A stretch of 64,000 nucleotides of DNA from a virus. The notes below the pieces were generated by a model. The model saw nothing but the letters and a program-made list of their open reading frames with translations, was not told where the DNA came from and made no database searches. Each line of letters starts with the position of its first letter. Position 1 is the stretch's first letter. Location: the IMG/VR virus record IMGVR_UViG_3300029368_000161. One strand, 5' to 3'. Both the position numbers and the translations under genes were made by a program. Shown here one piece after another: positions 1,201 through 34,727 of this stretch.

Positions 1201-1258
1201 CATCTCATATTTCCCTATGTAAACAAAAGCAACATTCATCGAAAGGAGAAATGAGAAG
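1201..1258 (+). promoter_or_regulatory. Type-A promoter/leader module (CATATT-N8-TGTAAAC ... CGAAAGGAGAAA RBS)
   Basis: catctcatatttccctatgtaaacaaaagcaacattcatcgaaaggagaaatgagaag ends at the ATG of the 1259 gene. Same motif family as the copies at 1816, 4606, 5128 and others. Confidence 0.5.
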
Positions 1259-1768
1259 ATGGCAGGATATAGCGGGTATTCAATGAGCAACAATGCGGTT
1301 GCAGCGTATGAGAACGGGGAGAAGCCTTTGAGTAAGTGGAAGAAGGCGGATATTCTGGAAGCGGTTAAAACACAGGAAGTTGAACTTAAATGTTCGCCCA
1401 GCAAACTGCAGAAGCTTCCGGCGGTCTTGTTGAAAGAAATTTGCCTGTGCTATTCCTCGTGGCACCACACAAGCAGTCATTACAATGAAACAAAATTTTA
1501 CATGCTGAATGCGGAGTATCTGGAAACTCTTACAGATGCCATGGTTGACGAAATTGCCGCAGAGTACAACAAGACGCATGCAAAAGAAAAACAGTCTGTG
1601 GAAGAAACATGGGAGTGCGCGTTTCTTGAGTGGTCAGGGACAAGGAAACACCCAAAAGCAACCGAAGTTGTTGAACAGGGTATTGTCCGAGGACAATGGT
1701 TTTACCGCAAGGATGGCACCAAAAAGAAGACATCAGCAAATGGATTCCGTTTTATCAAGAGAGTTTAG
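1259..1768 (+). CDS. hypothetical protein (169 aa)
   Basis: ORF with an upstream AAAGGAGAAA RBS and a terminator-like T-run downstream. No recognisable motif. Confidence 0.6.
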   Translation: MAGYSGYSMSNNAVAAYENGEKPLSKWKKADILEAVKTQEVELKCSPSKLQKLPAVLLKEICLCYSSWHHTSSHYNETKFYMLNAEYLETLTDAMVDEIAAEYNKTHAKEKQSVEETWECAFLEWSGTRKHPKATEVVEQGIVRGQWFYRKDGTKKKTSANGFRFIKRV

Positions 1769-1815
1769 GAAAAAAAAGGAAAAGACATGGCTTTGGCTGT
1801 GTCTTTTTTTTTGTG

Positions 1816-1867
1816 TTTCATATTAAAGGATGTAAAGCAAAAACAATCAGCGAAAGGAGAAAACACA
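1816..1867 (+). promoter_or_regulatory. Type-A promoter/leader module upstream of ligA
   Basis: tttcatattaaaggatgtaaagcaaaaacaatcagcgaaaggagaaaacacaATG, preceded by the hairpin/T-run ggctttggctgtgtcttttttttt. Confidence 0.55.
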
Positions 1868-3937
1868 ATGAATGAGACAAAAAAGAAAGAGATGGAGACA
1901 TTAATCGAAGCATTGAATGAGGCATCGTCTGCTTATTACAACGGTGCCACATCTGCGATGTCTGACCGTGAATGGGATGCCATGTTTGACCGGCTTAAGA
2001 AGATGGAAGAAGAAACAGGGATTGTTTATCCGAATTCTCCTACACAGATGGTCGGGGCTCCAGTTAAAGTTGACGAACTGCGGGAAGTCAGACATGAATT
2101 TTCTGCGCGGTCGCTGGATAAGACAAAGGATATTACTGTATTTCCAAAAATCTTCGGGAAAAGAGCTGCAGGCATGGCAGTTGTCATGTGGAAGTTGGAC
2201 GGCAGTACGATCGTCCTTACCTATGACGACGGACAGTTGACGCTTGCTGCCACCCGTGGCAATGGCGAAGTAGGAACGGATATTACACACAATGCCCCGT
2301 ATATTGCCGGTATTCCGCGGAAGATTCCGTACAATGGACATCTGGTAGTCCGCGGGGAAGCAGTCATGTCCTACAAAGAGTTTGAACGGCTCAATAATTC
2401 GCGTCCGGAAGGGGTGGAGGAGTACGCAAATCCGCGTAACCTCGCGAATTCAACAGTATCCATGAAGGATGCGGAGGATATGAGAAAACGTAAGATCCAG
2501 TTCTTTGCGTTTAAGCTTGTCCATATGGATGACCCGTTACCGGAGGATCAGGATACCTTTATGGGCCGCCTGAATTACCTGGATTCCCTTGGTTTTGATA
2601 CGGTGTACCGCCTTTACGGGGACAGCCAGAGTGATCTCATTGATGTCATGAACGGATTTTCTGACGCAGTCGAGCAGTTTGAGTATCCGGTGGATGGACT
2701 TGTTGTTGCATCTGATGATGTCAGGTATGCGGAGACTCTGCCGGGAACCGGGCACAATCCAGACCCGCTCGTTGGTTATGCCTTAAAGTGGGAAGATGAG
2801 ATTGCCAAAACCGTACTCCGGAAGATTGAATGGAGTCTTGGACGCACCGGTGCGATTACTCCGGTAGCAATTTTTGATCCGGTGGAACTTGAAGGCACTA
2901 CGGTCAGCCGTGCGAGCGCACACAACGTCAGTATCATGAAGAAATACCGGCTGCGTGTGGGAGATACAATCGGTGTATACAAGGCAAACAAGATTATTCC
3001 GCAGGTTGCAGTGAACTATACCGCGGATGAGAATCATACGCCGGCTCTTAAATACGAGGAAAGCCATAGCGTGCATTGCCCGTGCTGTGGAATGGAAACA
3101 GAACCGCATATTTCCGATGACGGCACAACGGAAATCGAAGTATGTGTTAATCCGAAATGTCCAGCAAAAGATGTAAAGAAGTTCGCGCATTTCGTTGAGC
3201 GCGACTGTATGAACATCAAAGGACTGTCGGAGGCAACACTGCAGAAATTCCTTGATTCCGGTTTCCTGCATGAGTTCGCAGATCTGTACCATTTGGACAG
3301 ATACAAGGACCAGATCGTTCCGATGGAAGGCTTTGGACAAAAATCATACGACAACCTGATTGCCTCCGTTGAGAAAAGCCGCAGGTCTTCCTTTGTTCCA
3401 TTTATCCATTCCCTCGGTATCCCTAATATCGGAAAAGGACAGGCAAAACTGTTTGACAAGGAATATAATGGAGATGTTGAGAAGTTTTTCGTTGATGTGT
3501 ACCAGAGACATGACTTTACCCACATCGAAGGTATTGGAGATGTCTTAAACGATAACCTCTGGAAATGGGGGAATGAATACTTAAGATGTATTCCATTTGA
3601 GGATAGTTTGAATAAGGTGTCACCGCCTCTTAATCTGGAAGTTTACAACCTGCTCAAAGAAGTGGATATCCAGATCCCGGAGAAAGCATCAACGGGTGCA
3701 TCTTCCCTTGCCGGGAAAACATTTGTAATTACCGGCAAGTTAAAGCATTTTACAAACCGGGATGCACTGGTGGCAAAGATTGAAGAACTTGGAGGAAAAG
3801 CTTCCGGTTCGGTATCAAAGAATACCTCATATCTGATCAACAACGATGTTGAGAGCACATCCGGAAAGAACAAGAAGGCAAAGGAACTCGGAGTGCCGGT
3901 TATTTCGGAAGACGGGTTTCTGGAGATGATTAAATAA
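1868..3937 (+). CDS. ligA: NAD-dependent DNA ligase LigA
   Basis: Adenylation motif WKLDGSTIVLTYDDGQ (K-x-D-G). About 690 aa. Contains a Cys4 zinc motif (CPCCG...CVNPKCP). C-terminal BRCT-like segment GKTFVITGKL...TSYLINND. The ATG at 1868 has a GAAAGGAGAAAA RBS, whereas the track ORF starts upstream at 1787. Confidence 0.9.
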   Translation: MNETKKKEMETLIEALNEASSAYYNGATSAMSDREWDAMFDRLKKMEEETGIVYPNSPTQMVGAPVKVDELREVRHEFSARSLDKTKDITVFPKIFGKRAAGMAVVMWKLDGSTIVLTYDDGQLTLAATRGNGEVGTDITHNAPYIAGIPRKIPYNGHLVVRGEAVMSYKEFERLNNSRPEGVEEYANPRNLANSTVSMKDAEDMRKRKIQFFAFKLVHMDDPLPEDQDTFMGRLNYLDSLGFDTVYRLYGDSQSDLIDVMNGFSDAVEQFEYPVDGLVVASDDVRYAETLPGTGHNPDPLVGYALKWEDEIAKTVLRKIEWSLGRTGAITPVAIFDPVELEGTTVSRASAHNVSIMKKYRLRVGDTIGVYKANKIIPQVAVNYTADENHTPALKYEESHSVHCPCCGMETEPHISDDGTTEIEVCVNPKCPAKDVKKFAHFVERDCMNIKGLSEATLQKFLDSGFLHEFADLYHLDRYKDQIVPMEGFGQKSYDNLIASVEKSRRSSFVPFIHSLGIPNIGKGQAKLFDKEYNGDVEKFFVDVYQRHDFTHIEGIGDVLNDNLWKWGNEYLRCIPFEDSLNKVSPPLNLEVYNLLKEVDIQIPEKASTGASSLAGKTFVITGKLKHFTNRDALVAKIEELGGKASGSVSKNTSYLINNDVESTSGKNKKAKELGVPVISEDGFLEMIK

Positions 3938-3946
3938 GGAGGACAT

Positions 3947-4537: not shown

Positions 4538-4605
4538 GAGAAAAGAGGAACCTGCGGGTTCTTCTTTTTTTCTTTCCATCTTAAGCGGTTAGTGCGGAAA
4601 TTTTG

Positions 4606-4658
4606 TTTCATATTGGTAGTGTAAACGAAACTATTTCAACAACGAAAGGAGAAAACTT
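4606..4658 (+). promoter_or_regulatory. Type-A promoter/leader module
   Basis: tttcatattggtagtgtaaacgaaactatttcaacaacgaaaggagaaaacttATG. It is part of an 84-bp direct repeat with 5745-5838. Confidence 0.55.
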
Positions 4659-5087
4659 ATGTTAATTTACGGAGTATGTGTTTCAGACATTAAACATTAC
4701 AATACGGAGAAGGCAGAGAAATTCTTGAATAGTCTCTTGGATACTGCTTGCCGCGGCATCGCCGACAATTACTTTGAAAACAAAGCGGATGGAAATAATC
4801 TTTACGACTGGCTTGATGGATACGATTCTTGCGATGGCTATTCAGGTCCAGCGGCTTGTTTCAAAGAAATCATCCGGGAATTGGAAGGAATCGATGTGGA
4901 CTGCGACGATCCAAACGGCGATCAGTTCCTTGGTATTTCCGCTGATGCACCATGGCATTTCAATGAGAAAACAAGGAATTTGTCAAAAGAAGAGTTCCAT
5001 GAGATCTTATCGCGGTATGTTTCTTATTTTACTGATGATGAGTTGGGGATCCGTTGGTGGCGTGCCAACGATGACTGCGAATATTAA
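4659..5087 (+). CDS. hypothetical acidic protein (142 aa)
   Basis: ORF with a type-A leader upstream and a terminator at 5095-5125 (agagttttcgggctcttctttttttt). Confidence 0.6.
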   Translation: MLIYGVCVSDIKHYNTEKAEKFLNSLLDTACRGIADNYFENKADGNNLYDWLDGYDSCDGYSGPAACFKEIIRELEGIDVDCDDPNGDQFLGISADAPWHFNEKTRNLSKEEFHEILSRYVSYFTDDELGIRWWRANDDCEY

Positions 5088-5127
5088 GAAAGGAAGAAGA
5101 AGAGTTTTCGGGCTCTTCTTTTTTTTA

Positions 5128-5176
5128 TTTCATATTAAATGTGTAAACAAAATGTTTCAACGAAAGGAGAAAAATT
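5128..5176 (+). promoter_or_regulatory. Type-A promoter/leader module
   Basis: tttcatattaaatgtgtaaacaaaatgtttcaacgaaaggagaaaaattATG. Confidence 0.55.
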
Positions 5177-5698
5177 ATGAGAAAAGAAAGATATGAGCAG
5201 GAGATGCAGGAAAAACACAACGCTTCTGTGCTTCAGACAATTAAGGAACTGGATCAGAAGATATGGAAAAAATATCATCCGGATTACAATGGAGAAAACG
5301 AACCGTCTTTACAGTTGGCTCCAATATGGTTGAAAACGGATGTAATTTCTGTTCTTATGGATTTCCCGGGAAGCGAAGGGGATATCTTGTCCATGATCCA
5401 AAAATCGGCATATGCTGATGAAATTTTCAAGAAGTATCTTGCTATGGAAGAGGTCAGAAGACAGATTGCTGTCAGAAACGATTTTAAGGCGGCCTTTAAT
5501 TCAGTCAAACATGGATGGGAGCTTTCCAGTGATCTTGATTACTCCATGTCGAAAAAAGACTTGTCCAATCTTGCAAAACTGCATAAAGCTGGAAAATGCA
5601 GAAGAAAAATAGAGGAACTGCTCACAGACTGTAATTTCCATTCGGCGTGTGGAGCGTTTTGCAAGCACGACTACGATGAGTTTTTATCAGAAAATTAA
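5177..5698 (+). CDS. hypothetical protein (173 aa)
   Basis: ORF followed by a terminator at 5712-5745 (aaacttgcaacctgcgggtttctcttttttttt). Confidence 0.6.
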   Translation: MRKERYEQEMQEKHNASVLQTIKELDQKIWKKYHPDYNGENEPSLQLAPIWLKTDVISVLMDFPGSEGDILSMIQKSAYADEIFKKYLAMEEVRRQIAVRNDFKAAFNSVKHGWELSSDLDYSMSKKDLSNLAKLHKAGKCRRKIEELLTDCNFHSACGAFCKHDYDEFLSEN

Positions 5699-5781
5699 TA
5701 AGAAAAGAGAGAAACTTGCAACCTGCGGGTTTCTCTTTTTTTTTTGCCTTCCCATCTTAAGCGGTTAGTGCGGAAATTTTG

Positions 5782-5838
5782 TTTCATATTGGTAGTGTAA
5801 ACGAAACTATTTCAAAAGCGAAAGGAGAAAAAAGACTA
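5782..5838 (+). promoter_or_regulatory. Type-A promoter/leader module (duplicate of the 4606 copy)
   Basis: Near-identical to 4575-4658 (cttaagcggttagtgcggaaattttgtttcatattggtagtgtaaacgaaactatttcaa...cgaaaggagaaaa). It leads only to a 14-codon ORF and then an AT-rich cassette. Confidence 0.5.
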
Positions 5839-5941
5839 TGCGAAAAAAGAAAATAAAAATCATCGAAAAACCTCCTCGGTCTTGAAATTTTTGTATAAGT
5901 AAGAAAACAAGAGTTTCAATAGAAAATTGGAGGAAAATATT

Positions 5942-6259: not shown

Positions 6260-6303
6260 AGAAACGATGGCTTAACAGATTAAGATTTAAAAGAGGGGAA
6301 CAA

Positions 6304-6552: not shown

Positions 6553-6609
6553 TTTTATTAAGAAAATAAACAGGATAAAGGCACGGCTCCGGCTGTGTCT
6601 TTTTTTGTA

Positions 6610-6660
6610 TTTCATATTAAAAATGTAGAGATTTTTTTTGCGAAAGGAGAAAGAGAAAAT
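6610..6660 (+). promoter_or_regulatory. Type-A promoter/leader module upstream of the CCA-adding enzyme gene
   Basis: tttcatattaaaaatgtagagattttttttgcgaaaggagaaagagaaaatATG. Confidence 0.55.
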
Positions 6661-8043
6661 ATGAAAAAAGAAGAATTAATACCGGATGTCCGCTCACGGG
6701 AAGATATTAACCGGCTATATCAGGTGTTTACCGCATCAGGATATCAGCTGTATCCCGTTGGGGGCTGTGTGAGGGATGCTGTAGCCGGAACAGCGCCACA
6801 CGACTACGATATGTGTACAAATGCTGTTCCGGCGCGGGTCATTCAGATTTTGCAGGACGGGCAGATTCCGTTCCATGCACCGGGGATCGACTTTGGTACG
6901 GTCATTGCAGATGTAAGAGGGAATTCCTACGAAATTACGAGCTTCCGGTCAGAAAGAGAATATACCGATGGCCGGCATCCGGGTAAGATCGTATTTGAGA
7001 AGGAGATAAATAAGGATCTTTCCAGAAGAGACTTTACGATCAATGCGATGGCTTACGATCTGCAGTCCGAAACGGTCATTGACCCATTCAACGGCATCAG
7101 CGACCTACAGAACGGCATCATTAAATGTGTTGGAGACCCTTTCGAGCGCTTTCAGGAGGACGGGCTTCGGATTGTCCGGGCACTTCGATTTGCAATCCGC
7201 TATGGGGCAGATTTTGATGGGAAAACGGCGGGAGCAATCCATGAGAACCTTGGAATGCTGCAGAACGTTTCAAAAGAACGTATCCTTATGGAATTTAGGA
7301 AAATCCTGAGTATGGATAAACCGGTTTCCAGAGTTTTTGTGGAATATGCAGATGTAATTACCTGCCTTATTCCGGAATTAAAGTCGTGCGTACATTTCAA
7401 TCAGAACAACAGATACCATAAGCATGATGTGTACGAGCATCTGCTCGCTGTAACAGATTTGTGCCAGACCACAAAATTTGAGATTAAGATGGCAGCACTG
7501 CTTCACGATATTGGAAAGCCGGACAGCTACATGGAAGATGAGAACGGACATGGTCATTTTTACGGGCATCCGGCAGTATCCGCGGAGATTGCAAAGGGAG
7601 TTCTGAAAACGGATTTTAAGGGGTTGAAGACGGAAGAATATGACCGTATCGTTGCGCTTGTGAAAACGCACGACAAATCAATTTCGTCGTCAAGAAAATC
7701 CGTAAAAAGATTCATCGCTGCTCATGGAGCGGATTTCCTCGATGACTGGGCTGTTTTAAAGAAAGCAGATTTCGATGACCACATTTTCCCGTCAGAACCG
7801 CCAAAAAACTGGTTTACGGATATTCCAGATGTCCTGAAAATCCGTGATGAACTTGTGGCAGAGGAAGAGTGCTTTTCCCTGAAAGATCTGGCAGTTAATG
7901 GGAAAGATCTGATGAAAGAACTTGGCCTAAAACCGGGAAAGAAGATTGGTGCTATCCTGCAGCAGATGCTTGAAGCGGTCATTAACGAAACGGTAACAAA
8001 CAATCGGGATGAACTTCTTTCCCTCGCACAGAAACTTATTTAA
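6661..8043 (+). CDS. cca: CCA-adding tRNA nucleotidyltransferase with HD domain
   Basis: GGCVRD motif (LYPVGGCVRDAVAG...DYDM) of the poly(A) polymerase/CCA family. RDFTINAMAYD motif. HD-domain motifs HKHDVYEHLLAV and LLHDIGKP. About 460 aa. Confidence 0.85.
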   Translation: MKKEELIPDVRSREDINRLYQVFTASGYQLYPVGGCVRDAVAGTAPHDYDMCTNAVPARVIQILQDGQIPFHAPGIDFGTVIADVRGNSYEITSFRSEREYTDGRHPGKIVFEKEINKDLSRRDFTINAMAYDLQSETVIDPFNGISDLQNGIIKCVGDPFERFQEDGLRIVRALRFAIRYGADFDGKTAGAIHENLGMLQNVSKERILMEFRKILSMDKPVSRVFVEYADVITCLIPELKSCVHFNQNNRYHKHDVYEHLLAVTDLCQTTKFEIKMAALLHDIGKPDSYMEDENGHGHFYGHPAVSAEIAKGVLKTDFKGLKTEEYDRIVALVKTHDKSISSSRKSVKRFIAAHGADFLDDWAVLKKADFDDHIFPSEPPKNWFTDIPDVLKIRDELVAEEECFSLKDLAVNGKDLMKELGLKPGKKIGAILQQMLEAVINETVTNNRDELLSLAQKLI

Positions 8044-8045
8044 CA

Positions 8046-8543: not shown

Positions 8544-9047
8544 CTACCCGTAGTATTCCTGTTTGAGAAAATCTGGTTCTCCTTCAATTCCAAGCGAGTC
8601 CATGCATTCTTTACAAATGGATTTAAGTTTTTCTTGCGTTAAACTTTTTTCCTCTTCGTTGTAGTTCCATGGGTAATCTTCTTGGAAAATGACAGCTGGA
8701 TAAGTGTCACAATCTGGATCAGCTCCGTAATAGGAAAAACGGATGCCTGTTACACGAGTCATTACATTGCTGATGACAGCGCCTGCGCCCTGTGATCCGG
8801 AAGTTTGGCAGCTGTAGGAATCGAAAGTTTTTTCAATGATGTCTTCTAGTTCAGATTCATCCATTTTTTTTGGTTTCCCATTTTCATCTTTTACATTGAG
8901 ACGTTCTGAAAACAGGTTGAAAAGTTCAACCTCTTCATTACTCATGCAAAAATGAAAAAGGTTATTTTCGAGAAATTCTTTGAATTTTTTTGGCTTACAA
9001 TCGCAGTTAAATCCAATGCCGCAGTAAATGATTGAGTTCATATTCAT
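8544..9047 (-). CDS. hypothetical protein (167 aa)
   Basis: Minus-strand ORF. RBS AAAGGAGATACAAAAT-ATG. A type-A motif lies upstream on the minus strand. Confidence 0.55.
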   Translation of the reverse strand: MNMNSIIYCGIGFNCDCKPKKFKEFLENNLFHFCMSNEEVELFNLFSERLNVKDENGKPKKMDESELEDIIEKTFDSYSCQTSGSQGAGAVISNVMTRVTGIRFSYYGADPDCDTYPAVIFQEDYPWNYNEEEKSLTQEKLKSICKECMDSLGIEGEPDFLKQEYYG

Positions 9048-9049
9048 AT

Positions 9050-9108
9050 TTTGTATCTCCTTTCGATAGTAAAAAAATTGTTTTACAACTTTAATATGAA
9101 ATAAAAAA
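9050..9108 (-). promoter_or_regulatory. Type-A promoter/leader module on the minus strand (drives 9047->8088 operon)
   Basis: Reverse complement reads tttcatattaaagttgtaaaacaatttttttactatcgaaaggagatacaaaatATG. It is arranged back-to-back with the plus-strand copy at 9134. Confidence 0.5.
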
Positions 9109-9133
9109 GTTTTCTTCTGTGGTTGGATTTTTC

Positions 9134-9184
9134 ATTTCATATTGTTGGCGTAAACAAAAAACCTGTGCGAAAGGAGAAAATGAG
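9134..9184 (+). promoter_or_regulatory. Type-A promoter/leader module
   Basis: tttcatttcatattgttggcgtaaacaaaaaacctgtgcgaaaggagaaaatgag. Confidence 0.5.
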
Positions 9185-9493
9185 ATGGAAAAGAAAGAGA
9201 TTGGAACGATGAGAGAGAAAGAATTCAAAGATGCCCTGCAGGAATCCAGAGAATATCTCTCAGACTATATTTGCGTTAGCAAAGATGTAATCAGGGCAAT
9301 CCAGCGGCATGCAAAGCGCTATGGCATCATGCCTGGAATCTGTGCATGGTATCTCGACTGGGAAGATTTTTGTTCTGACTGGTGTGATCAGTGTGGATAT
9401 ACGCGAACGCAGGCAAGAAAACTGTTGCATGGAGGAATCGGGGAATTTCAGGTTTTGCCAAATGGAAACGGAATCATCCGGTATACATTGTAA
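9185..9493 (+). CDS. hypothetical protein (about 102 aa)
   Basis: In-frame ATG after the GAAAGGAGAAAA RBS (the track ORF starts at 9119). Confidence 0.5.
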   Translation: MEKKEIGTMREKEFKDALQESREYLSDYICVSKDVIRAIQRHAKRYGIMPGICAWYLDWEDFCSDWCDQCGYTRTQARKLLHGGIGEFQVLPNGNGIIRYTL

Positions 9494-9505: not shown

Positions 9506-9718
9506 ATGAATAAGACTTATTATATTTTTCGACACCGTGTTGGCGTACCAAGGCATCTGGATGTCTGCCTTGCGGATGAGAAGAATGGAAGTAATTTCAT
9601 TTTCCAGACGAAAGATGCCGCTCAGAGATGTCTTGAGAAAGAATTCCGTAAAGGGAGAGCGTTTCATGACCAAAAATATGGATATGTAAAGCATTACATT
9701 CGGTATTTTTACAGTTAA
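9506..9718 (+). CDS. hypothetical protein (70 aa)
   Basis: RBS GAGGAGAAAACT-ATG. Terminator at 9722-9762 (aaagagttccttttttagagggggactcttttttttg). Confidence 0.5.
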   Translation: MNKTYYIFRHRVGVPRHLDVCLADEKNGSNFIFQTKDAAQRCLEKEFRKGRAFHDQKYGYVKHYIRYFYS

Positions 9719-9764
9719 GCGTATGCGAAAGAGTTCCTTTTTTAGAGGGGGACTCTTTTTTTTG

Positions 9765-9816
9765 TTTCATATTACTGGTGTAAACTTTTTAAGACTATTC
9801 GAAAGGAGAAAATAAG
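9765..9816 (+). promoter_or_regulatory. Type-A promoter/leader module
   Basis: tttcatattactggtgtaaactttttaagactattcgaaaggagaaaataagATG. Confidence 0.55.
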
Positions 9817-10620: not shown

Positions 10621-10697
10621 TTGAAAAAGAAGAAAAAGCTGTGCATATTTGCATGGCTTTTTTTTTGTGTGTGGGTGTGAGAAATGGAGAAAAAGTT

Positions 10698-10752
10698 TCA
10701 TTTCATATTCCTTATGTGAACATTTTTACAAAGTTGAAAGGAGAAAGAATCT
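10698..10752 (+). promoter_or_regulatory. Type-A promoter/leader module
   Basis: tttcatttcatattccttatgtgaacatttttacaaagttgaaaggagaaagaatctATG. Confidence 0.5.
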
Positions 10753-11613
10753 ATGAAAACAACAATTAAACTGTGGTATGAGGAAAAATATCTGCCAAAT
10801 AAAAGATGCCGTAAATTAAGAGAGCGTGCTGTCAGCAAAGATGTTGATATTGAGGTTTGCGAGGTTACCAAGGAAGAATTTCCGGTTGCGTTTGTCATAC
10901 ATGACTATGAGAGTGTGTATGAAGGTGCAAAGTCATATAGTGATTTTGAAGGAAACGGAGATTACAGGATGTTTTCAGAAGAGATCAGGACATATAATGG
11001 GAAACTGTACAAGCCTCTCCGTGTTACGTACGGCACAGCAATTAGTACAAACTTTGAGACATTGGATACTTTAAAATATAAGCTGCAGGAACAGGCTCCA
11101 TACTGGAAAGGCGGAGAGGATTATTCAGAAGAATCCATCATTAAGGAAAGCAATTTTAATGAGAAAATGAATTCCGCGAATAAAAGGGCCGAGGTTTATA
11201 TTGTATGTGACGGTGTCATCTGGGAAACTTGTGGAGAACCGATGTATGTTATAAATACATTTGGTCTTGGACACAACCATGGTGGGACAGGATTTTTTAT
11301 TGAATATTTTTATAATGACAATATTTCAGCCCAAAACTACTTCAACGCCTTGCAGCGCGAGGAAGCGATTACCTATGGCAAAAACGTAGCTCTTGGACGT
11401 GGGGATGACAAAAGCGTGGATGGCATGGGAGACCACGACATCATTGAGGTCAAGATGCCGGAAATGGTTAAGAGATGCCCACAGAAAGATCATGGGGATG
11501 GAGATCCATTTTTAAACGAGCTTGAAGGTATCATTTCCCATAGCGACAGCATTGGCGAAGCGGGGCTTCTTACAGTTCTTACGACAATGGCAGAGTGCAA
11601 CGCAGAAAAATAA
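10753..11613 (+). CDS. hypothetical protein (286 aa)
   Basis: ORF with a type-A leader. No recognisable catalytic motif. Confidence 0.6.
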   Translation: MKTTIKLWYEEKYLPNKRCRKLRERAVSKDVDIEVCEVTKEEFPVAFVIHDYESVYEGAKSYSDFEGNGDYRMFSEEIRTYNGKLYKPLRVTYGTAISTNFETLDTLKYKLQEQAPYWKGGEDYSEESIIKESNFNEKMNSANKRAEVYIVCDGVIWETCGEPMYVINTFGLGHNHGGTGFFIEYFYNDNISAQNYFNALQREEAITYGKNVALGRGDDKSVDGMGDHDIIEVKMPEMVKRCPQKDHGDGDPFLNELEGIISHSDSIGEAGLLTVLTTMAECNAEK

Positions 11614-13479: not shown

Positions 13480-13618
13480 CATTTTAAGGAAAACTCACTA
13501 ATTCCCACAGGAAAACCTGTGGTTTTTCGCCACAATTTTATAACTCAAAACAAAAAATTTGTGAATGATTGGATTATCTGGATATTTTTTGCTAAAGGAT
13601 CATTTGGAGGTATTGTAT

Positions 13619-14083: not shown

Positions 14084-14109
14084 GGTATGCATGAGAAAGA
14101 GGGAATGTA

Positions 14110-14439: not shown

Positions 14440-14989
14440 GTTTCTCTGGTAAGTTTCGGAGGAAGAAAAAAGGAGAATCATGGAAATGGAAGTATGGCCA
14501 GTTCTAACTGATAAAAGCCGAGCAATTACTTTCTGCCTGCTGGCATTTCTATATCAAACAGGTATTTCATATTAAAGTTAAAGAAAGGGATCATCTTTAA
14601 AATTTTCCCTTTAAAATATACAAAGGACTGGTACAACATATGAGAACAGAAACAACTAGCATTTCGGCAAGAAGAAAGAAAAAGACGAATACAGAACTTA
14701 ATAAGGTTAATCATGAGGCGCGTGCGCGGGGCATGTCGTATGGACAGTATTCATCCAAGGCGTATGCCCCGGTGGTTGAAAAAAGAGGAAGAATTGTGTA
14801 AGGATGTACTTTGATTGATCAAAGTTAGTTAACACAAAAATAGCAAGCAGTTTCTCGTTTCCAGAAATTCTGGGAAAGAAACTGCTTTTTGTATACATTG
14901 AATGCCTTGGCTGCATCAGAGGTATTCGTCGATGTCGTCGTAGTCCTGTATATCTTTAATATGCAACAAGAAAAGTTTGCGGCGCTTTT

Positions 14990-15046
14990 TTCATCTCATA
15001 TTCCTGATGTAAACAAATTTTGAAAATCGAAAGGAGATAATTTATT
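14990..15046 (+). promoter_or_regulatory. Type-A promoter/leader module
   Basis: ttttttcatctcatattcctgatgtaaacaaattttgaaaatcgaaaggagataatttattATG. A large terminator hairpin lies upstream at 14842-14890. Confidence 0.55.
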
Positions 15047-16963
15047 ATGGAAGGACAGATGAGTTTATTCAATACACCGGAGGTATCCGGAACATCGGCA
15101 CTTAAGGTTTCCAGAGATTTTGGAGAACATATCGGAGGCGCGAGAAAGGAACTCTGGTCAGCTGGAGGCATCAATCTTGAGGATCTTTTAGATATGAATG
15201 ATGCTGAGAAAGCAAAATTCGTAAAGAAAGACAATATCTGGAAGAAACCGGGTTACGAGCAGATGGTTGAAGCTGGCGTTCCGAAGGTAGTCGCTTACGC
15301 GATCAAAGAGGTGCGCAATGCAATTCCAGCAAAGCCATATGTTTCGTATTTCGAGCAGGACGATCCAGAGAAGGTGAAATACCGGATGGAGTGTTACGTC
15401 AAATTCGTGACCATGATCAGGGATACCATGTCGGGTGTTTCTTCTGAAGAAGAGTTTATGGAGAAACAGCAGGTTGTTTACAATCAGATTGTTGATCCGG
15501 AGCGCAGTACGCGTTACAGTATCTCTTCCAAACCGGAGTATACCGGATTGTTCCAGACGAAGCTTTTGCGTGCGATCCGCTGTGGTCATCAGACTTTCTC
15601 TGGCTACGCATACTGTGCAGAAGAAGAACAGTTTGCTGTGAAGAAAGAAGATAAGATACCTGCCGGATGGAAGATTGAAAAATATTCCCCGGATGGTTTT
15701 TACAGCCGTAGCCGTGTCGGATGCATCAGGGATACTTACATTGTTTCCAAAGGGTATTCTGTCATTGAGAAGAATATCCCAACGTACGAGGAAGCACTTT
15801 GTAAGTGCCAGGAATACGCAAAGCAGCTGAGAGCCAAGAAGCCACGCAAGGCTTCCGCTACTCCAAAGCAGCTGAAACGGGTTGAGCGTACCGGCCTTCC
15901 TGATGTCCGGAACGGACGGGATATCGTAGGAGAGGATTTCCTTAAGGATTTTGGTATCCGCGGTGGAGAGTTCGGCAACTGGATGTCCGAAAAGGACGCA
16001 CAGGCAAGTCTTAACATGGCGTACGAAGCATTCTGCGATTTTGCAGATGTCCTTGGCATCCCGTTATCTTCCGTGTCTTTCGGAGGCCGTCTTGCAATCG
16101 CTTTTGGTGCAAGAGGGCAGGGTTCCGCCGTCGCTCATTACGATCCGCTTCGTGAGGTAATCAATATTACGAAGATGAAAGGAGCCGGATCGCTTGGTCA
16201 TGAGATGTTCCATGCACTTGATGACATCGTAGCAAAGAAATTGGGATTAAAGAAAATGATGACAGAATCATTTGAGAAAGAAAAAATCCCGGAGAGCGTG
16301 CGAAATGTGATTTCTGCCATGCAGTACCGCAAGGCGACAAAAGAAGAGATCGAAGCTGAGAAGACAAAGAAGATCGAGGGCACAGAAAAACGTCTTCAGA
16401 AATGTATTGATTCTGTTTTCCCGGCAGACGGTCTTACAGATGCGCAGGTCAAAAAGAGAGCGGAACTTGTAAGGAATATCTTCGCAGACAAAGAGGAGCA
16501 CCTTATATCCATTGATGGAACGGCAACAGCTGCAATCGAGGCACTTTCTTCCTGCAAAAAAGAAGTGACCGGGCGTGTGATCAATAAGGAATCCAGAAAA
16601 GATCTGTTCTGGACCTGGTACAGATACGAAAGGGCTGTGACTGCTTCCTATAATGACATGCAGATGTTATCGGAATACTACAAGGAATCCAAAAAGATGG
16701 ATGACTGCACTTCCAAAGACAAGTTTGGATACTGGTCATCCACCGTTGAGATGTTTGCCCGCGCTGGTGCATGCTACCTGACCGATATGCTGAAAGCCAA
16801 GGGCGCCAAGAGCGATTACTTATCCGGGCATTCAGAAAGCTGTGTAGGCGTGGATAAGAACCTTGATCCTGTTTTTGCAATGCCGCGTGGTTCAGAAAGA
16901 GAAGCAATCAATGTGGCAATTCACGACATGATTGAAGATCTCAAGGCAAAAGAACTTATTTAA
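15047..16963 (+). CDS. large hypothetical protein with HExxH zincin-like motif (GHEMFHALDD); possible ArdC/anti-restriction-like metallopeptidase-domain protein
   Basis: 638 aa. The HEMFH motif is embedded in AFGARGQGSAVAHYDPLREVINITKMKGAGSLGHEMFHALDD. The family assignment is tentative. Confidence 0.55.
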   Translation: MEGQMSLFNTPEVSGTSALKVSRDFGEHIGGARKELWSAGGINLEDLLDMNDAEKAKFVKKDNIWKKPGYEQMVEAGVPKVVAYAIKEVRNAIPAKPYVSYFEQDDPEKVKYRMECYVKFVTMIRDTMSGVSSEEEFMEKQQVVYNQIVDPERSTRYSISSKPEYTGLFQTKLLRAIRCGHQTFSGYAYCAEEEQFAVKKEDKIPAGWKIEKYSPDGFYSRSRVGCIRDTYIVSKGYSVIEKNIPTYEEALCKCQEYAKQLRAKKPRKASATPKQLKRVERTGLPDVRNGRDIVGEDFLKDFGIRGGEFGNWMSEKDAQASLNMAYEAFCDFADVLGIPLSSVSFGGRLAIAFGARGQGSAVAHYDPLREVINITKMKGAGSLGHEMFHALDDIVAKKLGLKKMMTESFEKEKIPESVRNVISAMQYRKATKEEIEAEKTKKIEGTEKRLQKCIDSVFPADGLTDAQVKKRAELVRNIFADKEEHLISIDGTATAAIEALSSCKKEVTGRVINKESRKDLFWTWYRYERAVTASYNDMQMLSEYYKESKKMDDCTSKDKFGYWSSTVEMFARAGACYLTDMLKAKGAKSDYLSGHSESCVGVDKNLDPVFAMPRGSEREAINVAIHDMIEDLKAKELI

Positions 16964-17004
16964 CAACAACGAAGAAGGGCTTGCAGCGATGCAGGCCTTT
17001 TTTT

Positions 17005-17057
17005 GTTTCATATTAAAGAATGTAAACAATTTGATCATCGAAAGGAGAAAAAATACT
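17005..17057 (+). promoter_or_regulatory. Type-A promoter/leader module
   Basis: tttcatattaaagaatgtaaacaatttgatcatcgaaaggagaaaaaatactATG, after the terminator aagggcttgcagcgatgcaggccttttttt. Confidence 0.55.
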
Positions 17058-17942
17058 ATGAAAAAATCAAACGAAGAAAAAACTTATGCAACTCTTAAAC
17101 TTGGTAAGACTTATAAGTTTGCCGGATACAATTGGATGGCCTGTGAAGTGGATAATGACCGTCATGTTGTTGTAATCCAGTCGCATGGGGTAACCCATGG
17201 TGCATGGCCGGGATATACAATGCCACAGTTTGGAAACGGCAATTACTATTCCAATTCCATTGATGGAAAGGACATCAGCGACTACGATGACAAGATGCGG
17301 GCACTTTACGATGACATCAAAGATGCAGAGGATAAAGCTGCTCCTTATGGGGAAGGACTGTATTTGATATCAGTGGAAAAAGCCGAGTTTAAGGAATGGG
17401 ATAACACAGGTTCCGGAAATTACTGGCAGGCATTGAAGGCAACGGCAGAAAACGCCCATTCGTTCCGGGATGCCAATTACTTTGCGTGGCTCGGTGCTGA
17501 CAATGGCAGCAAAGGCGCGTGGTGTGTTGACTCGGATGGCTGCTTCTACAACTACTTCAATAAACGCAACGACTTTGTTATTGCCCCATGCTTCAACTTA
17601 GATTTATCGAAGGTTAAAGTTGTAGATAACGAAATCGTCATTATAGACAATAAATTTGGTATATCCTTAATTGAGAAACCAGATGTTTATGGCCTGGTAA
17701 AATCAGAAATCATTAAAATGTATGACATGCTGGACACGGATGAAGTATACCCGTTAGAAATCAGCGGTTCCCAGAGTTCTGCAATGGGCTTTATTACCCA
17801 AAAGGCAGCGGAAGTCATTGATTATGACTACGAGAATTCGGGGCTGAATGAATTTATATCATCTATTCTGGATGATATGGATAAGGAATCAGAAGACAGT
17901 ATCTATGATTTCCATGGTGTTAAAATTCATCTTGAACGTTGA
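17058..17942 (+). CDS. hypothetical protein; paralog family 1 (QSHGVTHGxWPG...FGNGNYY...SGNYWQALK...APxFNLDLSK)
   Basis: The N-terminal ~190 aa are paralogous to the 60632 and 61216 gene products. Confidence 0.6.
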   Translation: MKKSNEEKTYATLKLGKTYKFAGYNWMACEVDNDRHVVVIQSHGVTHGAWPGYTMPQFGNGNYYSNSIDGKDISDYDDKMRALYDDIKDAEDKAAPYGEGLYLISVEKAEFKEWDNTGSGNYWQALKATAENAHSFRDANYFAWLGADNGSKGAWCVDSDGCFYNYFNKRNDFVIAPCFNLDLSKVKVVDNEIVIIDNKFGISLIEKPDVYGLVKSEIIKMYDMLDTDEVYPLEISGSQSSAMGFITQKAAEVIDYDYENSGLNEFISSILDDMDKESEDSIYDFHGVKIHLER

Positions 17943-18046
17943 TCAGTCATACATAACCCGATGCACCGGGAACTAAAAATTGAGGTTCCCGTGTAAAGGG
18001 GGAACCTCTTTGTTTAACAGCATTGTGCTGAGAAAGAGAGGAAATT

Positions 18047-18892
18047 ATGAGCTATTACAAAGTAAGAAGTGTTGCATTTAAGCGGTCTATTGGAGAAATC
18101 TATGTTACCTGTGCCGATTCGTCTCTGCGCCCACTCAAGTATTACAGGAGCGAATACGCAGAGAATATTGAGGATTTCGCAGAAAAATGCAAGCTGTTCT
18201 GGGTGGATGTCCTGTCTGGAAATTTCCAGTTTACGGAGAGTAATCAATGGCATTTTTATGTTAAGAATGCTTATGCAGAAATGCACCTGATTGCACACAA
18301 CATCGACATTTTCAGCAAGGATTTGGATTACAGAACTAATTTTTATAATGAATTGCAAGAGTATGTTGCAAAAACTTACCTTGTACCTCTTGTAACAAAG
18401 GAAGCAAAACGTATCGATATTGATTTCGAAGCAGATTTTGCCGAGAGATGTCAGAAAAGATGGGATGAGATTGATAAGGAACGTGCCGAAAAGAAGCAGA
18501 TCAGCATCCGTGCAGCTTTGATATCAGATGTATTTCCTGGATGGGATACGCTTTTGAGTAAAAAAGAGAATCGTATCATTGTTGCAAAGAGTCAGAATTA
18601 CGATAATCATGGTTTGCTGGATAATTCAGATAAAACAGCTGTTCTACTACCAGAAGGCAGTGGAAATGATTGGCGCTGGATTGCGTACGCAAATATGGAA
18701 GATCTTCCGGAGATTCTGGAAAAATATCCGCAACTTGTAAGTGCTATCACTGTCGAAGCATCATATCAGTCCGGAGAGCGTGCTGTAATGGATGGCTATA
18801 CAAAAATCTGCCAGAAACCAGATGGGAAGGCTCTGTATGTAGAAAATAGTAATGGAAAAGTATCCTGGGCAGAGGAAACTGGATATTGCTAG
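18047..18892 (+). CDS. hypothetical protein (281 aa)
   Basis: RBS GAGAGGAAATT-ATG. Confidence 0.55.
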   Translation: MSYYKVRSVAFKRSIGEIYVTCADSSLRPLKYYRSEYAENIEDFAEKCKLFWVDVLSGNFQFTESNQWHFYVKNAYAEMHLIAHNIDIFSKDLDYRTNFYNELQEYVAKTYLVPLVTKEAKRIDIDFEADFAERCQKRWDEIDKERAEKKQISIRAALISDVFPGWDTLLSKKENRIIVAKSQNYDNHGLLDNSDKTAVLLPEGSGNDWRWIAYANMEDLPEILEKYPQLVSAITVEASYQSGERAVMDGYTKICQKPDGKALYVENSNGKVSWAEETGYC

Positions 18893-18906
18893 GAGGTGTA
18901 AGAATC

Positions 18907-19203
18907 ATGCAACAAATTACATCATATAACCAGCTGTTCACTAATATTTCAGAGCATCCAGAATATCCATACATAATCATTGATTTTCTTGTTGTAAATG
19001 ATGAGAAAGTAGATCTTTGGTGTTCGCAGCGTACTTCATCATTATTGAAGATTGGAGAACCAAAGCATCGGCTATTGAGAGGAAAAGTAGCTTATGATAC
19101 CCCGGAAATGAAAAGAATAGGCAGAGAGATAAAGAGAAAACTGCAGAAAGATTTGCGTGGTACTGGTTTTGAAGTGCATAGCAATCTGCGTTTTAGGTTC
19201 TGA
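18907..19203 (+). CDS. hypothetical protein (about 98 aa)
   Basis: AGGAGGTGTAAGAATC-ATG start. Terminator at 19219-19250. Confidence 0.5.
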   Translation: MQQITSYNQLFTNISEHPEYPYIIIDFLVVNDEKVDLWCSQRTSSLLKIGEPKHRLLRGKVAYDTPEMKRIGREIKRKLQKDLRGTGFEVHSNLRFRF

Positions 19204-19247
19204 CATTTACAGATGGAATTAAGAAGAGTCTTCTGGCTCTTCTTTTT

Positions 19248-19301
19248 TTTATTGCATATTAAGGGTGTAAACAAAACATATTTGAAAGGAGAATTGAAAC
19301 T
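19248..19301 (+). promoter_or_regulatory. Type-A promoter/leader module
   Basis: attgcatattaagggtgtaaacaaaacatatttgaaaggagaattgaaactATG. Confidence 0.55.
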
Positions 19302-34725: not shown

Positions 34726-34727
34726 AG

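What the first reader, a model, noticed from the sequence alone, without database searches (positions are those of the whole stretch)
1201..19301. Reiterated type-A promoter/leader cassette (TTTCATATT-N8-TGTAAAC ... CGAAAGGAGAAAA-ATG) used at least 15 times on both strands, each preceded by an intrinsic terminator
Copies occur at 1201, 1816, 4606, 5128, 5782, 6610, 9050(-), 9134, 9765, 10698, 14990, 17005, 19248, 37160(-) and 38058(-). The spacing between CATATT and GTAAAC is fixed (8-9 nt), and the leader down to the RBS is conserved (CGAAAGGAGAAAA). The bipartite motif does not resemble a sigma-70 -35/-10 (TTGACA/TATAAT). It could be recognised by an element-encoded sigma factor or activator, or be an operator pair. 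The terminator-promoter-RBS-gene modularity resembles phage early regions or moron cassettes and would allow cassette shuffling (see the 84-bp duplicate at 4575 and 5745).
Basis: seen in the sequence. Interest (0 to 1): 0.55.

Follow-up and report, generated by a model that had tools for sequence, protein, structure and literature searches.

The report
Reiterated −35-less promoter/RBS cassette
A huge human-gut Lachnospiraceae mobile element (probably a conjugative megaplasmid) places the same compact, apparently element-specific promoter-plus-ribosome-binding-site module in front of dozens of separately terminated genes, which looks like a new promoter class whose recognition factor is unknown.

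Summary
Exactly 15 copies of tTTTTyrT(T/C)TCATATT-N5/6-TGTAAAC, followed by an 8-nt Shine-Dalgarno (GAAAGGAG) and an ATG, lie at the listed places (12 on +, 3 on −). Chance expectation is 0.15.

Two details are wrong:
- The gap is N5 (12 sites) or N6 (3 sites), not N8.
- Only 11 of 15 copies follow a terminator. The other four sit in divergent promoter regions.

The geometry fits a −35-less promoter:
- CATATT lies at −12..−7.
- A T-rich extension covers −23..−13.
- The conserved T/G of TGTAAAC lies at −1/+1.
- A 31–41-nt unstructured A-rich leader follows.

The −35 region carries no information.

A metagenome scan gave 115 non-redundant copies, all from human gut. They sit in front of at least 59 protein families, including DnaE, SSB, RecJ, UvrD, PARG, LigA and CCA-adding enzyme. 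A cultured Lachnospiraceae isolate carries a diverged relative with the same module.

The element (contigs of 166–375 kb) resembles the recently described "Hodor" megaplasmids. It also has canonical TTGACA/TTGACG promoters, so type A is a separate class.

No sigma factor or RNA polymerase gene was found, and transcription start sites are untested. Verdict: a new variant of a known kind (promoter class), of moderate interest.

The parts
1195..1261 (+). Type-A cassette 1: T-tract, TCTCATATT (1203-1211), N6, TGTAAAC (G at 1219), SD GGAG at 1245, ATG at 1259. Drives a 169-aa ORF at 1259-1768.
1808..1870 (+). Type-A cassette 2 (N6 spacer, GTAAAG variant). G at 1832, ATG at 1868. Drives NAD-dependent DNA ligase at 1868-3937.
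4598..4661 (+). Type-A cassette 3. G at 4621, ATG at 4659. Drives a 142-aa acidic ORF at 4659-5087. Lies within the 94-nt duplicate 4562-4655.
5120..5179 (+). Type-A cassette 4. G at 5143, ATG at 5177. Drives a 173-aa ORF at 5177-5698. The terminator abuts the motif.
5774..5840 (+). Type-A cassette 5, a 94%-identical duplicate of cassette 3. G at 5797, ATG at 5838. Followed only by a 15-codon ORF (5838-5885), then genes at 5942 and 6304.
6602..6663 (+). Type-A cassette 6 (GTAGAG variant). G at 6625, ATG at 6661. Drives a CCA-adding/poly(A) polymerase-family enzyme at 6661-8043.
9045..9109 (-). Type-A cassette 7 on the minus strand (motif 9081-9101). G at 9086, ATG at 9047. Drives a 167-aa ORF at 8544-9047. 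Back-to-back with cassette 8.
9127..9187 (+). Type-A cassette 8. G at 9150, ATG at 9185. Drives a 102-aa ORF at 9185-9493, followed by the ORF at 9506-9718.
9757..9819 (+). Type-A cassette 9. G at 9780, ATG at 9817. Drives a 267-aa ORF at 9817-10620.
10693..10755 (+). Type-A cassette 10 (GTGAAC variant). G at 10716, ATG at 10753. Drives a 286-aa DUF8359 ORF at 10753-11613.
14986..15049 (+). Type-A cassette 11 (TCTCATATT variant). G at 15009, ATG at 15047. Drives a 638-aa protein with a C-terminal LPD1 domain at 15047-16963.
16998..17060 (+). Type-A cassette 12 (N6 spacer). G at 17022, ATG at 17058. Drives a 294-aa ORF at 17058-17942. The orthologous cassette is retained in isolate locus L086 at about 74% nucleotide identity.
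19244..19304 (+). Type-A cassette 13 (TTGCATATT variant). G at 19267, ATG at 19302. Drives a 164-aa ORF at 19302-19796. Terminator plus promoter are 91% identical to cassette 4.
37149..37207 (-). Type-A cassette 14 on the minus strand (motif 37179-37199). G at 37184, ATG at 37151. Drives a 206-aa ORF at 36531-37151. Divergent from a type-B (TTGACG) promoter at 37235.
38055..38111 (-). Type-A cassette 15 on the minus strand (motif 38083-38103). G at 38088, ATG at 38057. Drives a 91-aa ORF at 37782-38057. Divergent from a type-B promoter at 38135.
1775..1812 (+). Intrinsic terminator (17-bp stem plus T-run). Its T-tail is also the T-tract of cassette 2.
5091..5126 (+). Intrinsic terminator abutting cassette 4.
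6577..6602 (+). Intrinsic terminator abutting cassette 6. The stem sequence GGCACGGCTCCGGCTGTGTC recurs in relatives (L086, L087).
9727..9759 (+). Intrinsic terminator abutting cassette 9.
16974..17001 (+). Intrinsic terminator abutting cassette 12 (approximate coordinates).
19221..19244 (+). Intrinsic terminator abutting cassette 13.

Best explanation
Type A is a compact, portable expression module. It consists of an (often shared) intrinsic terminator, a promoter with no -35 element, a short unstructured leader, a near-perfect Shine-Dalgarno and an ATG.

Proposed promoter geometry:
- CATATT is the -10 hexamer at -12..-7 (A at -11, T at -7).
- It is extended upstream by T(-15), Y(-14), T(-13), R(-16) and a T-tract at -23..-17.
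- Transcription starts at the invariant G of T|GTAAAC, 6-7 nt downstream of the hexamer.
- This gives 31-41-nt A-rich leaders.
- GAAAGGAG then pairs with the 16S rRNA 3' end.

Each module makes its gene an insulated, strongly translated, monocistronic unit. The repeated 60-100-bp boundary also lets genes move between contexts together with their own expression signals.

I favour recognition that needs a specificity factor other than plain host sigma-A, such as an element-encoded or alternative sigma, or a sigma-appropriating activator (about 0.45). Host sigma-A acting alone through the extended -10/T-tract is the main alternative (about 0.35).

Shown here: the motif, its statistics, its geometry, its orientation, its position behind terminators, its conservation in diverged relatives, the absence of -35 information, and the lack of leader structure.

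Inferred: promoter activity, the start site, and the identity of the factor.
For: - The window holds 15 copies against 0.15 expected by chance. PWM scores of true sites are separated from background by more than 14 bits.
- All 15 copies are co-oriented with an ATG 31-41 nt downstream of the conserved G.
- 11 of 15 copies in the window follow strong terminators. Among 115 non-redundant copies, 76 do so within 60 nt. A new promoter is therefore needed at exactly these positions.
- Over the 115 non-redundant copies from human-gut metagenomes:
  - CATATT is invariant.
  - T(-1) is present in 94% and G(+1) in 98%.
  - T(-15) is present in 100%, and the T-tract at -23..-17 is conserved.
  - The N5 spacer, the leader and positions -45..-24 carry 0.5 bit or less.
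- The T-tract persists in the 54 copies that have no abutting terminator.
- 126 of 135 unique copies are followed by an SD and a start codon.
- The promoter half and the SD are separated by a stretch of variable length (G to GGAG, 21-27 nt) and variable sequence. They are therefore two separate modules.
- Leaders have essentially no predicted structure (mean z = 0.01).
- The module is kept in a cultured Lachnospiraceae isolate and in a MAG, in front of diverged or unrelated genes. It is also kept in orthologous cassettes whose upstream neighbours differ.
- The same element has canonical promoters. One is TTGACA-17-TATGAT before the tRNA cluster region. The other is a reiterated TTGACG-type 'type B' module that ends in the same ATAT...TGTAA(A) arrangement. 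Two conclusions follow. ATAT...TG is a -10/start-site pair, and type A is a distinct class without a -35 element.
- Downstream genes belong to at least 59 families, including DnaE, SSB, RecJ, UvrD, PARG, LigA and a CCA-adding enzyme.
- There is a precedent for a plasmid-private promoter class read by a plasmid-encoded sigma. This is SigN of pBS32, with -10 GATATAA and a regulon of DNA and nucleotide-metabolism genes (PMC6751061).
Against: - There are no 5'-end or expression data, so promoter activity and the start site rest on geometry alone.
- No sigma factor, RNA polymerase or obvious activator gene was found in the window. None was found in about 640 kb of related loci either. The PDB sequence searches of five candidate proteins were also negative. 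This weakens the dedicated-factor version. However, most of the roughly 350-kb element was not seen, and divergent sigma factors would escape these searches.
- The invariance of some positions is inflated, because many loci were retrieved with an exact pattern.
- Part of the similarity between copies reflects recent duplication and not independent selection.
Confidence: 0.68

Rival explanations
1. Type A is an ordinary host sigma-A promoter of the extended -10 kind. The T-rich -16 region (Y-17, R-16, T-15) and the upstream T/A-tract replace the -35 element. No element-encoded factor is needed, as would suit genes that must be expressed immediately after conjugative entry into a naive cell.
For: - CATATT keeps the two critical -10 positions (A at -11, T at -7) at the canonical distance from a Y/R start.
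- Positions -17..-15 resemble the Gram-positive TRTG '-16 region' (own knowledge: Voskuil & Chambliss 1998).
- Type-B promoters with a sigma-A-like TTGACG -35 share the ATAT...TGTAA core.
- No sigma gene was found.
Against: - G(-14) of the TG motif is absent. That position is always T or C.
- C(-12) and T(-8) are invariant where sigma-A prefers T and A.
- The conserved +1..+6 GTAAAC is not explained by sigma-A.
- The element also uses textbook TTGACA-17-TATGAT promoters. The deviation therefore looks deliberate.
Confidence: 0.3
2. The conserved blocks are mainly a binding site for a global element-encoded regulator (repressor or activator) that overlaps a weak promoter. The conservation would then reflect operator function and not RNA polymerase contacts.
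For: - Conservation extends over about 30 bp, including +1..+10, which is more than RNA polymerase usually constrains.
- The tandem TYTCA pentamers at -20..-11 look like repeated half-sites.
- Plasmids often control establishment genes with one repressor (own knowledge: KorA/KorB, ArdK).
Against: - The motif is not palindromic, and the two blocks are unrelated in sequence.
- The geometry fits -10/+1 exactly.
- No HTH regulator was found next to the cassettes.
- This explanation is not exclusive of the promoter reading.
Confidence: 0.15
3. The motif acts at the RNA level. It would be a conserved 5'-UTR, processing site or translational enhancer within longer read-through transcripts. The hairpins would then be 3'-end stabilisers and not terminators.
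For: - GTAAACAAAA would be transcribed under any model.
- The SD part is certainly an RNA signal.
Against: - The most conserved block (the T-tract plus TTTCATATT) lies directly on the terminator U-tract. It has no conserved promoter upstream of it (information content below 0.35 bit from -45 to -24).
- Leaders are unstructured.
- The distance from the motif to the SD varies by 6 nt or more.
- No Rfam family matches.
- Four copies sit in divergent intergenic regions, where no upstream transcript can arrive on that strand.
Confidence: 0.07
4. The repeats are recombination or mobility sites (integron attC-like, or MITE-like) that demarcate gene cassettes. Expression signals would be incidental.
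For: - The region contains single-gene units in one orientation, separated by hairpin-containing repeats.
- The same cassette is found behind different neighbours.
- There are duplicated boundaries.
Against: - The hairpins are G+C-rich stems with T-runs and differ in sequence.
- There are no RYYYAAC/GTTRRRY cores and no conserved inverted repeats flanking the units.
- No integron integrase was found in the window.
- The conserved part is asymmetric and always at a fixed distance from a start codon.
Confidence: 0.04

Closest known systems
SigN (ZpdN) regulon promoters of Bacillus subtilis plasmid pBS32 (PMC6751061)
   Same: - A promoter family confined to one large Bacillota extrachromosomal element.
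- It is reiterated in front of DNA and nucleotide-metabolism genes and genes of unknown function.
- The -10 element is ATAT-rich (GATATAA versus CATATT).
- It coexists with sigma-A promoters on the same element.
   Different: - SigN promoters have a strong -35 element (ATTTACGTTT). Type A has none.
- The sigN gene is known. No sigma gene has been found here.
- Type A adds a conserved start region (TGTAAAC) and a fused consensus SD.
Phage T4 late promoters (TATAAATA at -10, read by gp55/gp33 with the sliding clamp); own knowledge
   Same: - No -35 element.
- A single extended AT-rich -10 block defines the promoter.
- Many copies are spread across a large element.
   Different: - The sequence is different.
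- T4 late promoters have no conserved +1..+6 block or T-tract.
- No gp55-like gene was seen here.
- The host is Gram-positive.
Extended -10 / '-16 region' (TRTGnTATAAT) sigma-A promoters of Gram-positive bacteria; own knowledge
   Same: - Independence from the -35 element through contacts just upstream of the -10 hexamer.
- T/R/T at -17..-15 and A(-11)/T(-7) are present.
   Different: - The defining G(-14) is replaced by T or C.
- The hexamer is invariably CATATT and not TATAAT.
- The spacer T-tract and the initial transcribed sequence are also conserved.
Promoter/terminator-dense early regions and 'morons' of phages (for example the SPO1 host-takeover module, T4/T5 early genes, lambda-like morons); own knowledge
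   Same: - Many small genes of unknown function, each with its own promoter and terminator.
- Mosaic cassette-like exchange between relatives.
   Different: - Those use host sigma-70/sigma-A consensus promoters with a -35 element.
- Here the element looks like a conjugative megaplasmid.
- The module also drives large housekeeping-type genes (DnaE, LigA).
Frpo/ssi single-strand promoters in leading regions of conjugative plasmids; own knowledge
   Same: - Reiterated dedicated promoters for early, establishment or anti-defence genes of a conjugative element.
- Gene content is similar (SSB, polyvalent-protein LPD1 domain, methylases nearby).
   Different: - Frpo elements are roughly 300-nt folded ssDNA hairpins that recreate a -35/-10 duplex.
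- Type A is about 30 bp, unstructured, and has no -35 element.

Membership tests
Canonical sigma-70/sigma-A promoter | -35 hexamer (TTGACA-like) 16-18 nt upstream of the -10 hexamer | tested here: not met
   Information content is 0.35 bit or less at every position from -45 to -24 in 115 non-redundant sites. The region is usually a terminator stem.
Canonical sigma-70/sigma-A promoter | -10 hexamer with A at position 2 and T at position 6, 5-9 nt upstream of a purine start | tested here: met
   CATATT is invariant. It lies 6 nt (104 sites) or 7 nt (11 sites) upstream of a G that is preceded by T. The start site itself has not been mapped.
Extended -10 promoter | TG at -15/-14 (TRTG in Gram-positives) | tested here: not met
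   Position -15 is T in 100% of sites. Position -14 is T in 70% and C in 30%, and never G. Position -16 is A or G and -17 is T or C.
Intrinsic (Rho-independent) terminator upstream of each copy | G+C-rich hairpin followed by a T-run | tested here: met
   This holds for 11 of 15 window copies (dG -9 to -22 kcal/mol) and for 76 of 115 non-redundant copies. It does not hold for the four divergent copies.
Shine-Dalgarno ribosome-binding site | Complementarity to the 16S rRNA 3' end, 5-10 nt upstream of the start codon | tested here: met
   GAAAGGAG is 8 nt complementary to ...CCUCCUUUC-3' (the rRNA sequence is from own knowledge). The first G of GGAG lies 10-15 nt before the ATG. The host's own 16S sequence was not examined.
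Known RNA families (Rfam) | Covariance-model match at the gathering score | tested here: not met
   Only tRNAs are reported in the window. Leaders are predicted to be unstructured.
Integron attC cassette boundary | RYYYAAC...GTTRRRY core sites in an imperfect palindrome; integron integrase nearby | tested here: not met
   TGTAAAC and GTTTCAT do not fit the core sites. The hairpins are terminator-like and differ in sequence. No integrase of that type appears among the window's Pfam hits.
Single-subunit (T7-like) or non-canonical phage RNA polymerase promoter | A contiguous conserved block from about -17 to +6 and a cognate polymerase gene in the element | tested here: inconclusive
   The 5 nt just upstream of +1 are variable. 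No DxDGD-type or other RNA polymerase ORF was found in the sampled DNA. Most of the element was not seen.
'Hodor' conjugative megaplasmids (bioRxiv 10.64898/2026.02.21.707213) | More than 200 kb, human gut, Bacillota host, type I-C CRISPR-Cas with a degraded array | tested here: met
   - Contigs of 166, 264 and 375 kb carry window proteins.
- All related loci come from human gut.
- A relative is present in a Lachnospiraceae isolate.
- Cas5/Cas8c/Cas7 are present with scattered mini-arrays.
- The paper's description is given.
'Hodor' conjugative megaplasmids (bioRxiv 10.64898/2026.02.21.707213) | Rep_3, ParA/B/M, VirB4/VirD4 T4SS, MOBH HD relaxase, sortase module; at least 90% nucleotide identity to group G1 or G2 genomes | not testable with these tools
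   None of these genes lies in the window or the fetched flanks, and the reference genomes are not available here. The window's G+C content of about 40% is below the 44.6-47.1% reported for whole Hodor genomes. Membership is therefore only a lead.

The most novel reading that the evidence does not exclude
The megaplasmid runs a private transcription programme. A so-far unrecognised element-encoded sigma factor, sigma-appropriating activator or RNA polymerase would read the -35-less TTTyrTyTCATATT-N5-TGTAAAC promoters. This would switch on at least 59 gene families (replication, repair, anti-defence and unknown genes) as insulated single-gene units, in the way phage middle/late or pBS32 SigN programmes work. 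A further speculative twist concerns the fusion of the terminator U-tract with the promoter T-tract, seen in half of the copies. It might let RNA polymerase that has just terminated re-initiate on the next cassette.
Probability: 0.3. Interest if true: 0.65.

Novelty: new variant of a known kind. Interest (0 to 1): 0.45.

Why it matters
These 200-400-kb elements are widespread in the human gut. They were only recently recognised, and the one preprint that describes them says nothing about promoters or sigma factors.

- **Annotation.** A sharply defined, highly reiterated promoter class gives a handle on how the element organises expression of its mostly unknown genes. It allows transcription units to be annotated from sequence alone.
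- **Biology.** It predicts either a missing specificity factor or an unusual mode of -35-independent recognition by Clostridia RNA polymerase.
- **Engineering.** The roughly 70-bp terminator-promoter-SD module is a candidate ready-made strong expression cassette for Lachnospiraceae, which are genetically hard to work with.
- **Evolution.** The shared boundaries offer a simple mechanism for cassette exchange between elements.

Tried and rejected
1. **IMG/VR scan with the 16-base motif.** It returned only single chance hits. One multi-hit locus (L050) turned out to be a giant-virus repeat protein region. The element is not in IMG/VR.
2. **PLSDB and INPHARED searches.** PLSDB gave no match. INPHARED matched only an IS1182-like transposase occupying window 1-1031.
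3. **Hunt for a sigma factor, RNA polymerase or regulator.** All of the following were negative:
   - Pfam on about 80 window ORFs.
   - PHROGs, which returned only families of unknown function.
   - Pfam on ORFs from the isolate and the MAG and on 118 large ORFs of the metagenome loci.
   - phmmer with E. coli RpoD regions 2-4 against 3,079 ORFs.
   - A search for the DxDGD catalytic motif.
   - PDB sequence searches of five unknown proteins.
4. **RNA-structure hypothesis for the leader.** Minimum free energies are about 0 and no different from shuffles. There is no Rfam hit.
5. **Idea that the Cas3-less type I-C Cascade is guided to the type-A promoters.** The spacers of the mini-arrays match nothing but themselves.
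6. **Sporulation-type sigma promoters (CATA... -10 elements of sigma-E/K/G) and a TcdR-type -35 (GTTTACA on the opposite strand).** I considered these from memory and rejected them. The required partner elements and spacings are not conserved, and the opposite strand has no gene to transcribe.
7. **Integron attC and ssDNA (Frpo) promoter models.** Rejected; see the membership tests.
8. **Supplementary tables of the Hodor preprint.** Not held.
9. **Walking along the 166-375-kb contigs.** Not possible beyond 10 kb on each side of the window.

Full report
**Observation**

I extracted the 15 listed positions, and all show the same architecture.
- TTTCATATTNNNNNTGTAAAC with up to 2 mismatches occurs 12 times in the window. 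Dinucleotide shuffles give a mean of 0.15 and a maximum of 2.
- Three further copies (1203, 1816, 17006) have a 6-nt gap instead of a 5-nt gap.
- A position weight matrix built from 104 independent copies found elsewhere scores the window copies at 29-47 bits. The next best position scores 15 bits, and the best of 20 shuffled windows scores 8.7 bits.
- The SD block CGAAAGGAGAAAA with up to 1 mismatch occurs 11 times against 0.27 expected.

- The spacer is N5 or N6, not N8.
- The minus-strand motifs lie at 9081-9101, 37179-37199 and 38083-38103.
- A strong hairpin plus T-run precedes 11 of 15 copies, and abuts 7 of them. The other four copies lie in back-to-back promoter regions.
- The cassette at 5782 is a 94%-identical, 94-nt duplicate of the one at 4606 and is followed only by a 15-codon ORF.

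**Anatomy**

I take the invariant G of TGTAAAC as +1. The consensus over 115 non-redundant copies (less than 90% identical over 110 nt) is as follows:
- A T-tract at -23..-17.
- R at -16, T at -15 (100%), Y at -14, T at -13.
- CATATT at -12..-7, invariant.
- Five nearly random bases.
- T at -1 (94%) and G at +1 (98%).
- TAAAC at +2..+6, then an A-rich stretch to +10.

Positions -45 to -24 carry 0.35 bit or less, so there is no -35 element.

The T-tract is not just the tail of the preceding terminator. It persists, shortened to TTTyr, in the 54 copies with no abutting terminator.

The distance from G to GGAG varies from 21 to 27 nt, and the intervening sequence is not conserved. The promoter-like half and the SD are therefore separate signals and not one translational element. 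Predicted leaders (31-41 nt) are unstructured, with a mean z-score of 0.01 against shuffles. GAAAGGAG is an 8-nt complement of the 16S rRNA 3' end (own knowledge). This explains the 'conserved leader'.

**What the element is**

Window genes include:
- LigA, a CCA-adding enzyme, an LPD1-domain polyvalent-type protein and a helicase.
- C5 and N6 DNA methylases, PcfJ, flotillin and FtsH-like pieces.
- An IS3 element, 14 tRNAs and a Cas3-less type I-C Cas5/Cas8c/Cas7 set with scattered mini-arrays.

Identical proteins lie on human-gut metagenome contigs of 166, 264 and 375 kb. There is no match in PLSDB or, by motif, in IMG/VR. The only phage-database match is an IS transposase at window 1-1031.

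These features fit the 'Hodor' conjugative megaplasmids. That preprint describes elements of 211-389 kb from human gut with Bacillota hosts, type I-C CRISPR-Cas with a degraded array and TnpB, first mistaken for huge phages (PMC12934698). The hallmark Rep_3, Par, T4SS and sortase genes were not within reach, and the window's G+C content (about 40%) is lower than reported. I treat this as a lead only. That preprint does not mention promoters or sigma factors.

**Distribution and conservation**

A scan of 185,579 species-representative genomes for motif plus SD hit only a cultured Lachnospiraceae isolate (MGYG-HGUT-00136, three contigs) and one MAG. There the module precedes genes that are diverged (about 74-84% nucleotide identity) or unrelated to those of the window.

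All came from human gut, and most were not alignable to the window. Of 135 unique copies, 126 are followed by an SD and a start codon.

The downstream proteins fall into at least 59 families. These include DnaE, SSB, RecJ, UvrD, a primase-type zinc ribbon, guanylate kinase, PARG, DUF5688 and many unknowns. Neighbouring genes include NrdD, HNH nucleases and PARP/NUDIX proteins.

An orthologous cassette (the LPD1 gene) occurs behind three different upstream sequences. Homology starts 50-60 nt upstream of the T-tract. In a 91%-identical relative, the T-tract-to-TGTAAACAAA block and the SD are intact while the flanks and the leader have changed. This shows purifying selection on the motif and movement of the gene together with its promoter.

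**How it most likely works**

The geometry is that of a sigma-70-family promoter without a -35 element. A -10 hexamer keeps the two critical positions (A at -11, T at -7). It lies 6-7 nt upstream of a pyrimidine/purine start, and specific bases extend it upstream.

Two independent observations support this reading:
1. The copies sit exactly where a new start is needed: directly behind terminators, or in divergent intergenic regions.
2. A second reiterated module ('type B', 10 copies in the window) has a sigma-A-like TTGACG -35 element. About 16 nt downstream it has the same ATAT core, followed 6-7 nt later by TG(T)AA. Three paralogous non-coding RNAs downstream of type-B promoters begin to be conserved at exactly that TGTAAAGG.

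The element also has a textbook TTGACA-17-TATGAT promoter. The host polymerase evidently uses canonical signals, and type A is a deliberate deviation from them.

The following features argue for a reader other than plain sigma-A, as with SigN of pBS32 or T4 gp55:
- The invariant C(-12) and T(-8).
- The absence of the TG motif.
- The conserved GTAAAC.
- The DNA-metabolism-rich set of downstream genes.

Against this, no such factor was found in the window or in about 640 kb of related loci. I put promoter function at about 0.85. Within that, I put a dedicated factor at about 0.45-0.5 and host sigma-A alone at about 0.35.

The functional consequence is a set of insulated, strongly translated single-gene units with interchangeable 60-100-bp boundaries.

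**Rivals**

- An operator for a global regulator is not excluded and is compatible with the promoter reading.
- An RNA-level element is unlikely. There is no upstream promoter information, the leaders are unstructured, the spacing to the SD varies, and some copies lie in divergent regions.
- A recombination (attC-like) site is unlikely. The core sites are absent, no integrase was found, and the motif is asymmetric and tied to start codons.
- Guidance of the Cas3-less Cascade to the promoters was tested and rejected.

**Verdict**

The finding is a genuine, statistically overwhelming and evolutionarily conserved feature. The 'does not resemble -10' and 'N8' statements are wrong, and the 'each preceded by a terminator' statement is too strong.

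It is a new variant of a known kind: a -35-less, element-specific promoter class fused to a consensus RBS. It occurs in a newly recognised class of gut megaplasmid-like elements. Interest is moderate (0.45). It would rise if a private sigma factor or RNA polymerase were found, or if host polymerase proved to use an unrecognised mode of -35-independent recognition.

Noticed in passing
window 11745, 13159, 19945, 22555, 28978, 33109, 37235, 38135, 41336, 41598 (+ strand); also L090 12694 and 17105, L087, L088: There is a second reiterated module of about 60 nt ('type B'): an A/T-rich upstream part, then CTTTGACGATTTTTnAAAtGGCGCAATAT, then N6, then TG(T)AA. It has a sigma-A-like -35 element (TTGACG) with an odd -10. 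It drives non-coding RNAs, mini-CRISPR arrays and a few ORFs. At 37.2 kb and 38.1 kb it is arranged back-to-back with type-A copies.
   Followed up: partly
window 19971-20120, 33135-33290, 38161-38310 (+ strand): Three paralogous RNAs of about 150 nt lie directly after type-B promoters. They begin TGTAAAGGTCATAAACCGRGCTGCCAGGGTTAYCGGCTGGCAG and end in a tRNA-like T-arm (CCGGGTTCGAYTCCCGG). No Rfam family matches at the gathering score or at E<=1. They may be a new tRNA-like small RNA.
   Followed up: partly
window 22725-22825, 39389-39421, 41078-41177, 45768-45933; cas genes 41718-45041: The window has Cas5, Cas8c and Cas7 only; no cas3, cas1, cas2 or cas4 was seen. It also has several scattered mini-arrays of 1-3 type I-C-like 33-nt repeats (...GGTGTATGGGTTGAAAT). 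Two arrays, 18 kb apart, share nearly the same spacer (94% identity). The spacers match nothing else in the fetched DNA.
   Followed up: partly
window 34508-36014 (- strand) and 52913-52987 (+ strand): There is a cluster of 13 tRNA genes plus a separate tRNA-Met. A textbook TTGACA-17-TATGAT promoter lies at about 36387-36415 on the minus strand, upstream of a 50-codon ORF and the tRNA cluster.
   Followed up: no
window 1-1060 (- strand): An IS1182/IS5-like transposase gene fills this stretch. It is 99.8% identical to part of 'Bacteriophage sp.' MT836577. Related contigs L001-L003 carry different sequence to the left of window position 1114, so this is an IS insertion specific to this variant.
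   Followed up: partly
window 59760-59943, compared with L090 4365-7798: There is a 3.4-kb presence/absence polymorphism between the window and four other contigs. It includes an HD-domain gene and is flanked by about 180 bp of repeated sequence. Nearby lie three or more paralogues of a DUF6273-like gene (17058-17942, 60632-61210, about 61250-61800).
   Followed up: no
window 29546-30741 (- strand): An IS3-family element (HTH orfA plus rve integrase-core orfB) is inserted between + strand genes.
   Followed up: no
window 14940-14966 (- strand): A weak type-A-like site (15 bits, TTGCATATTAAAGATATAC) diverges from the strong copy at 14994. It may be a decayed divergent partner.
   Followed up: no
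L001 1-8100 (about 8 kb to the left of window position 1114 in contigs without the IS insertion): The region encodes RecA, SpoVG, a microbial PARG and an IS200/IS605 TnpA plus TnpB-like pair. SpoVG, PARG and three further genes carry type-A cassettes. The type-A-rich region therefore extends at least 8 kb beyond the window.
   Followed up: partly
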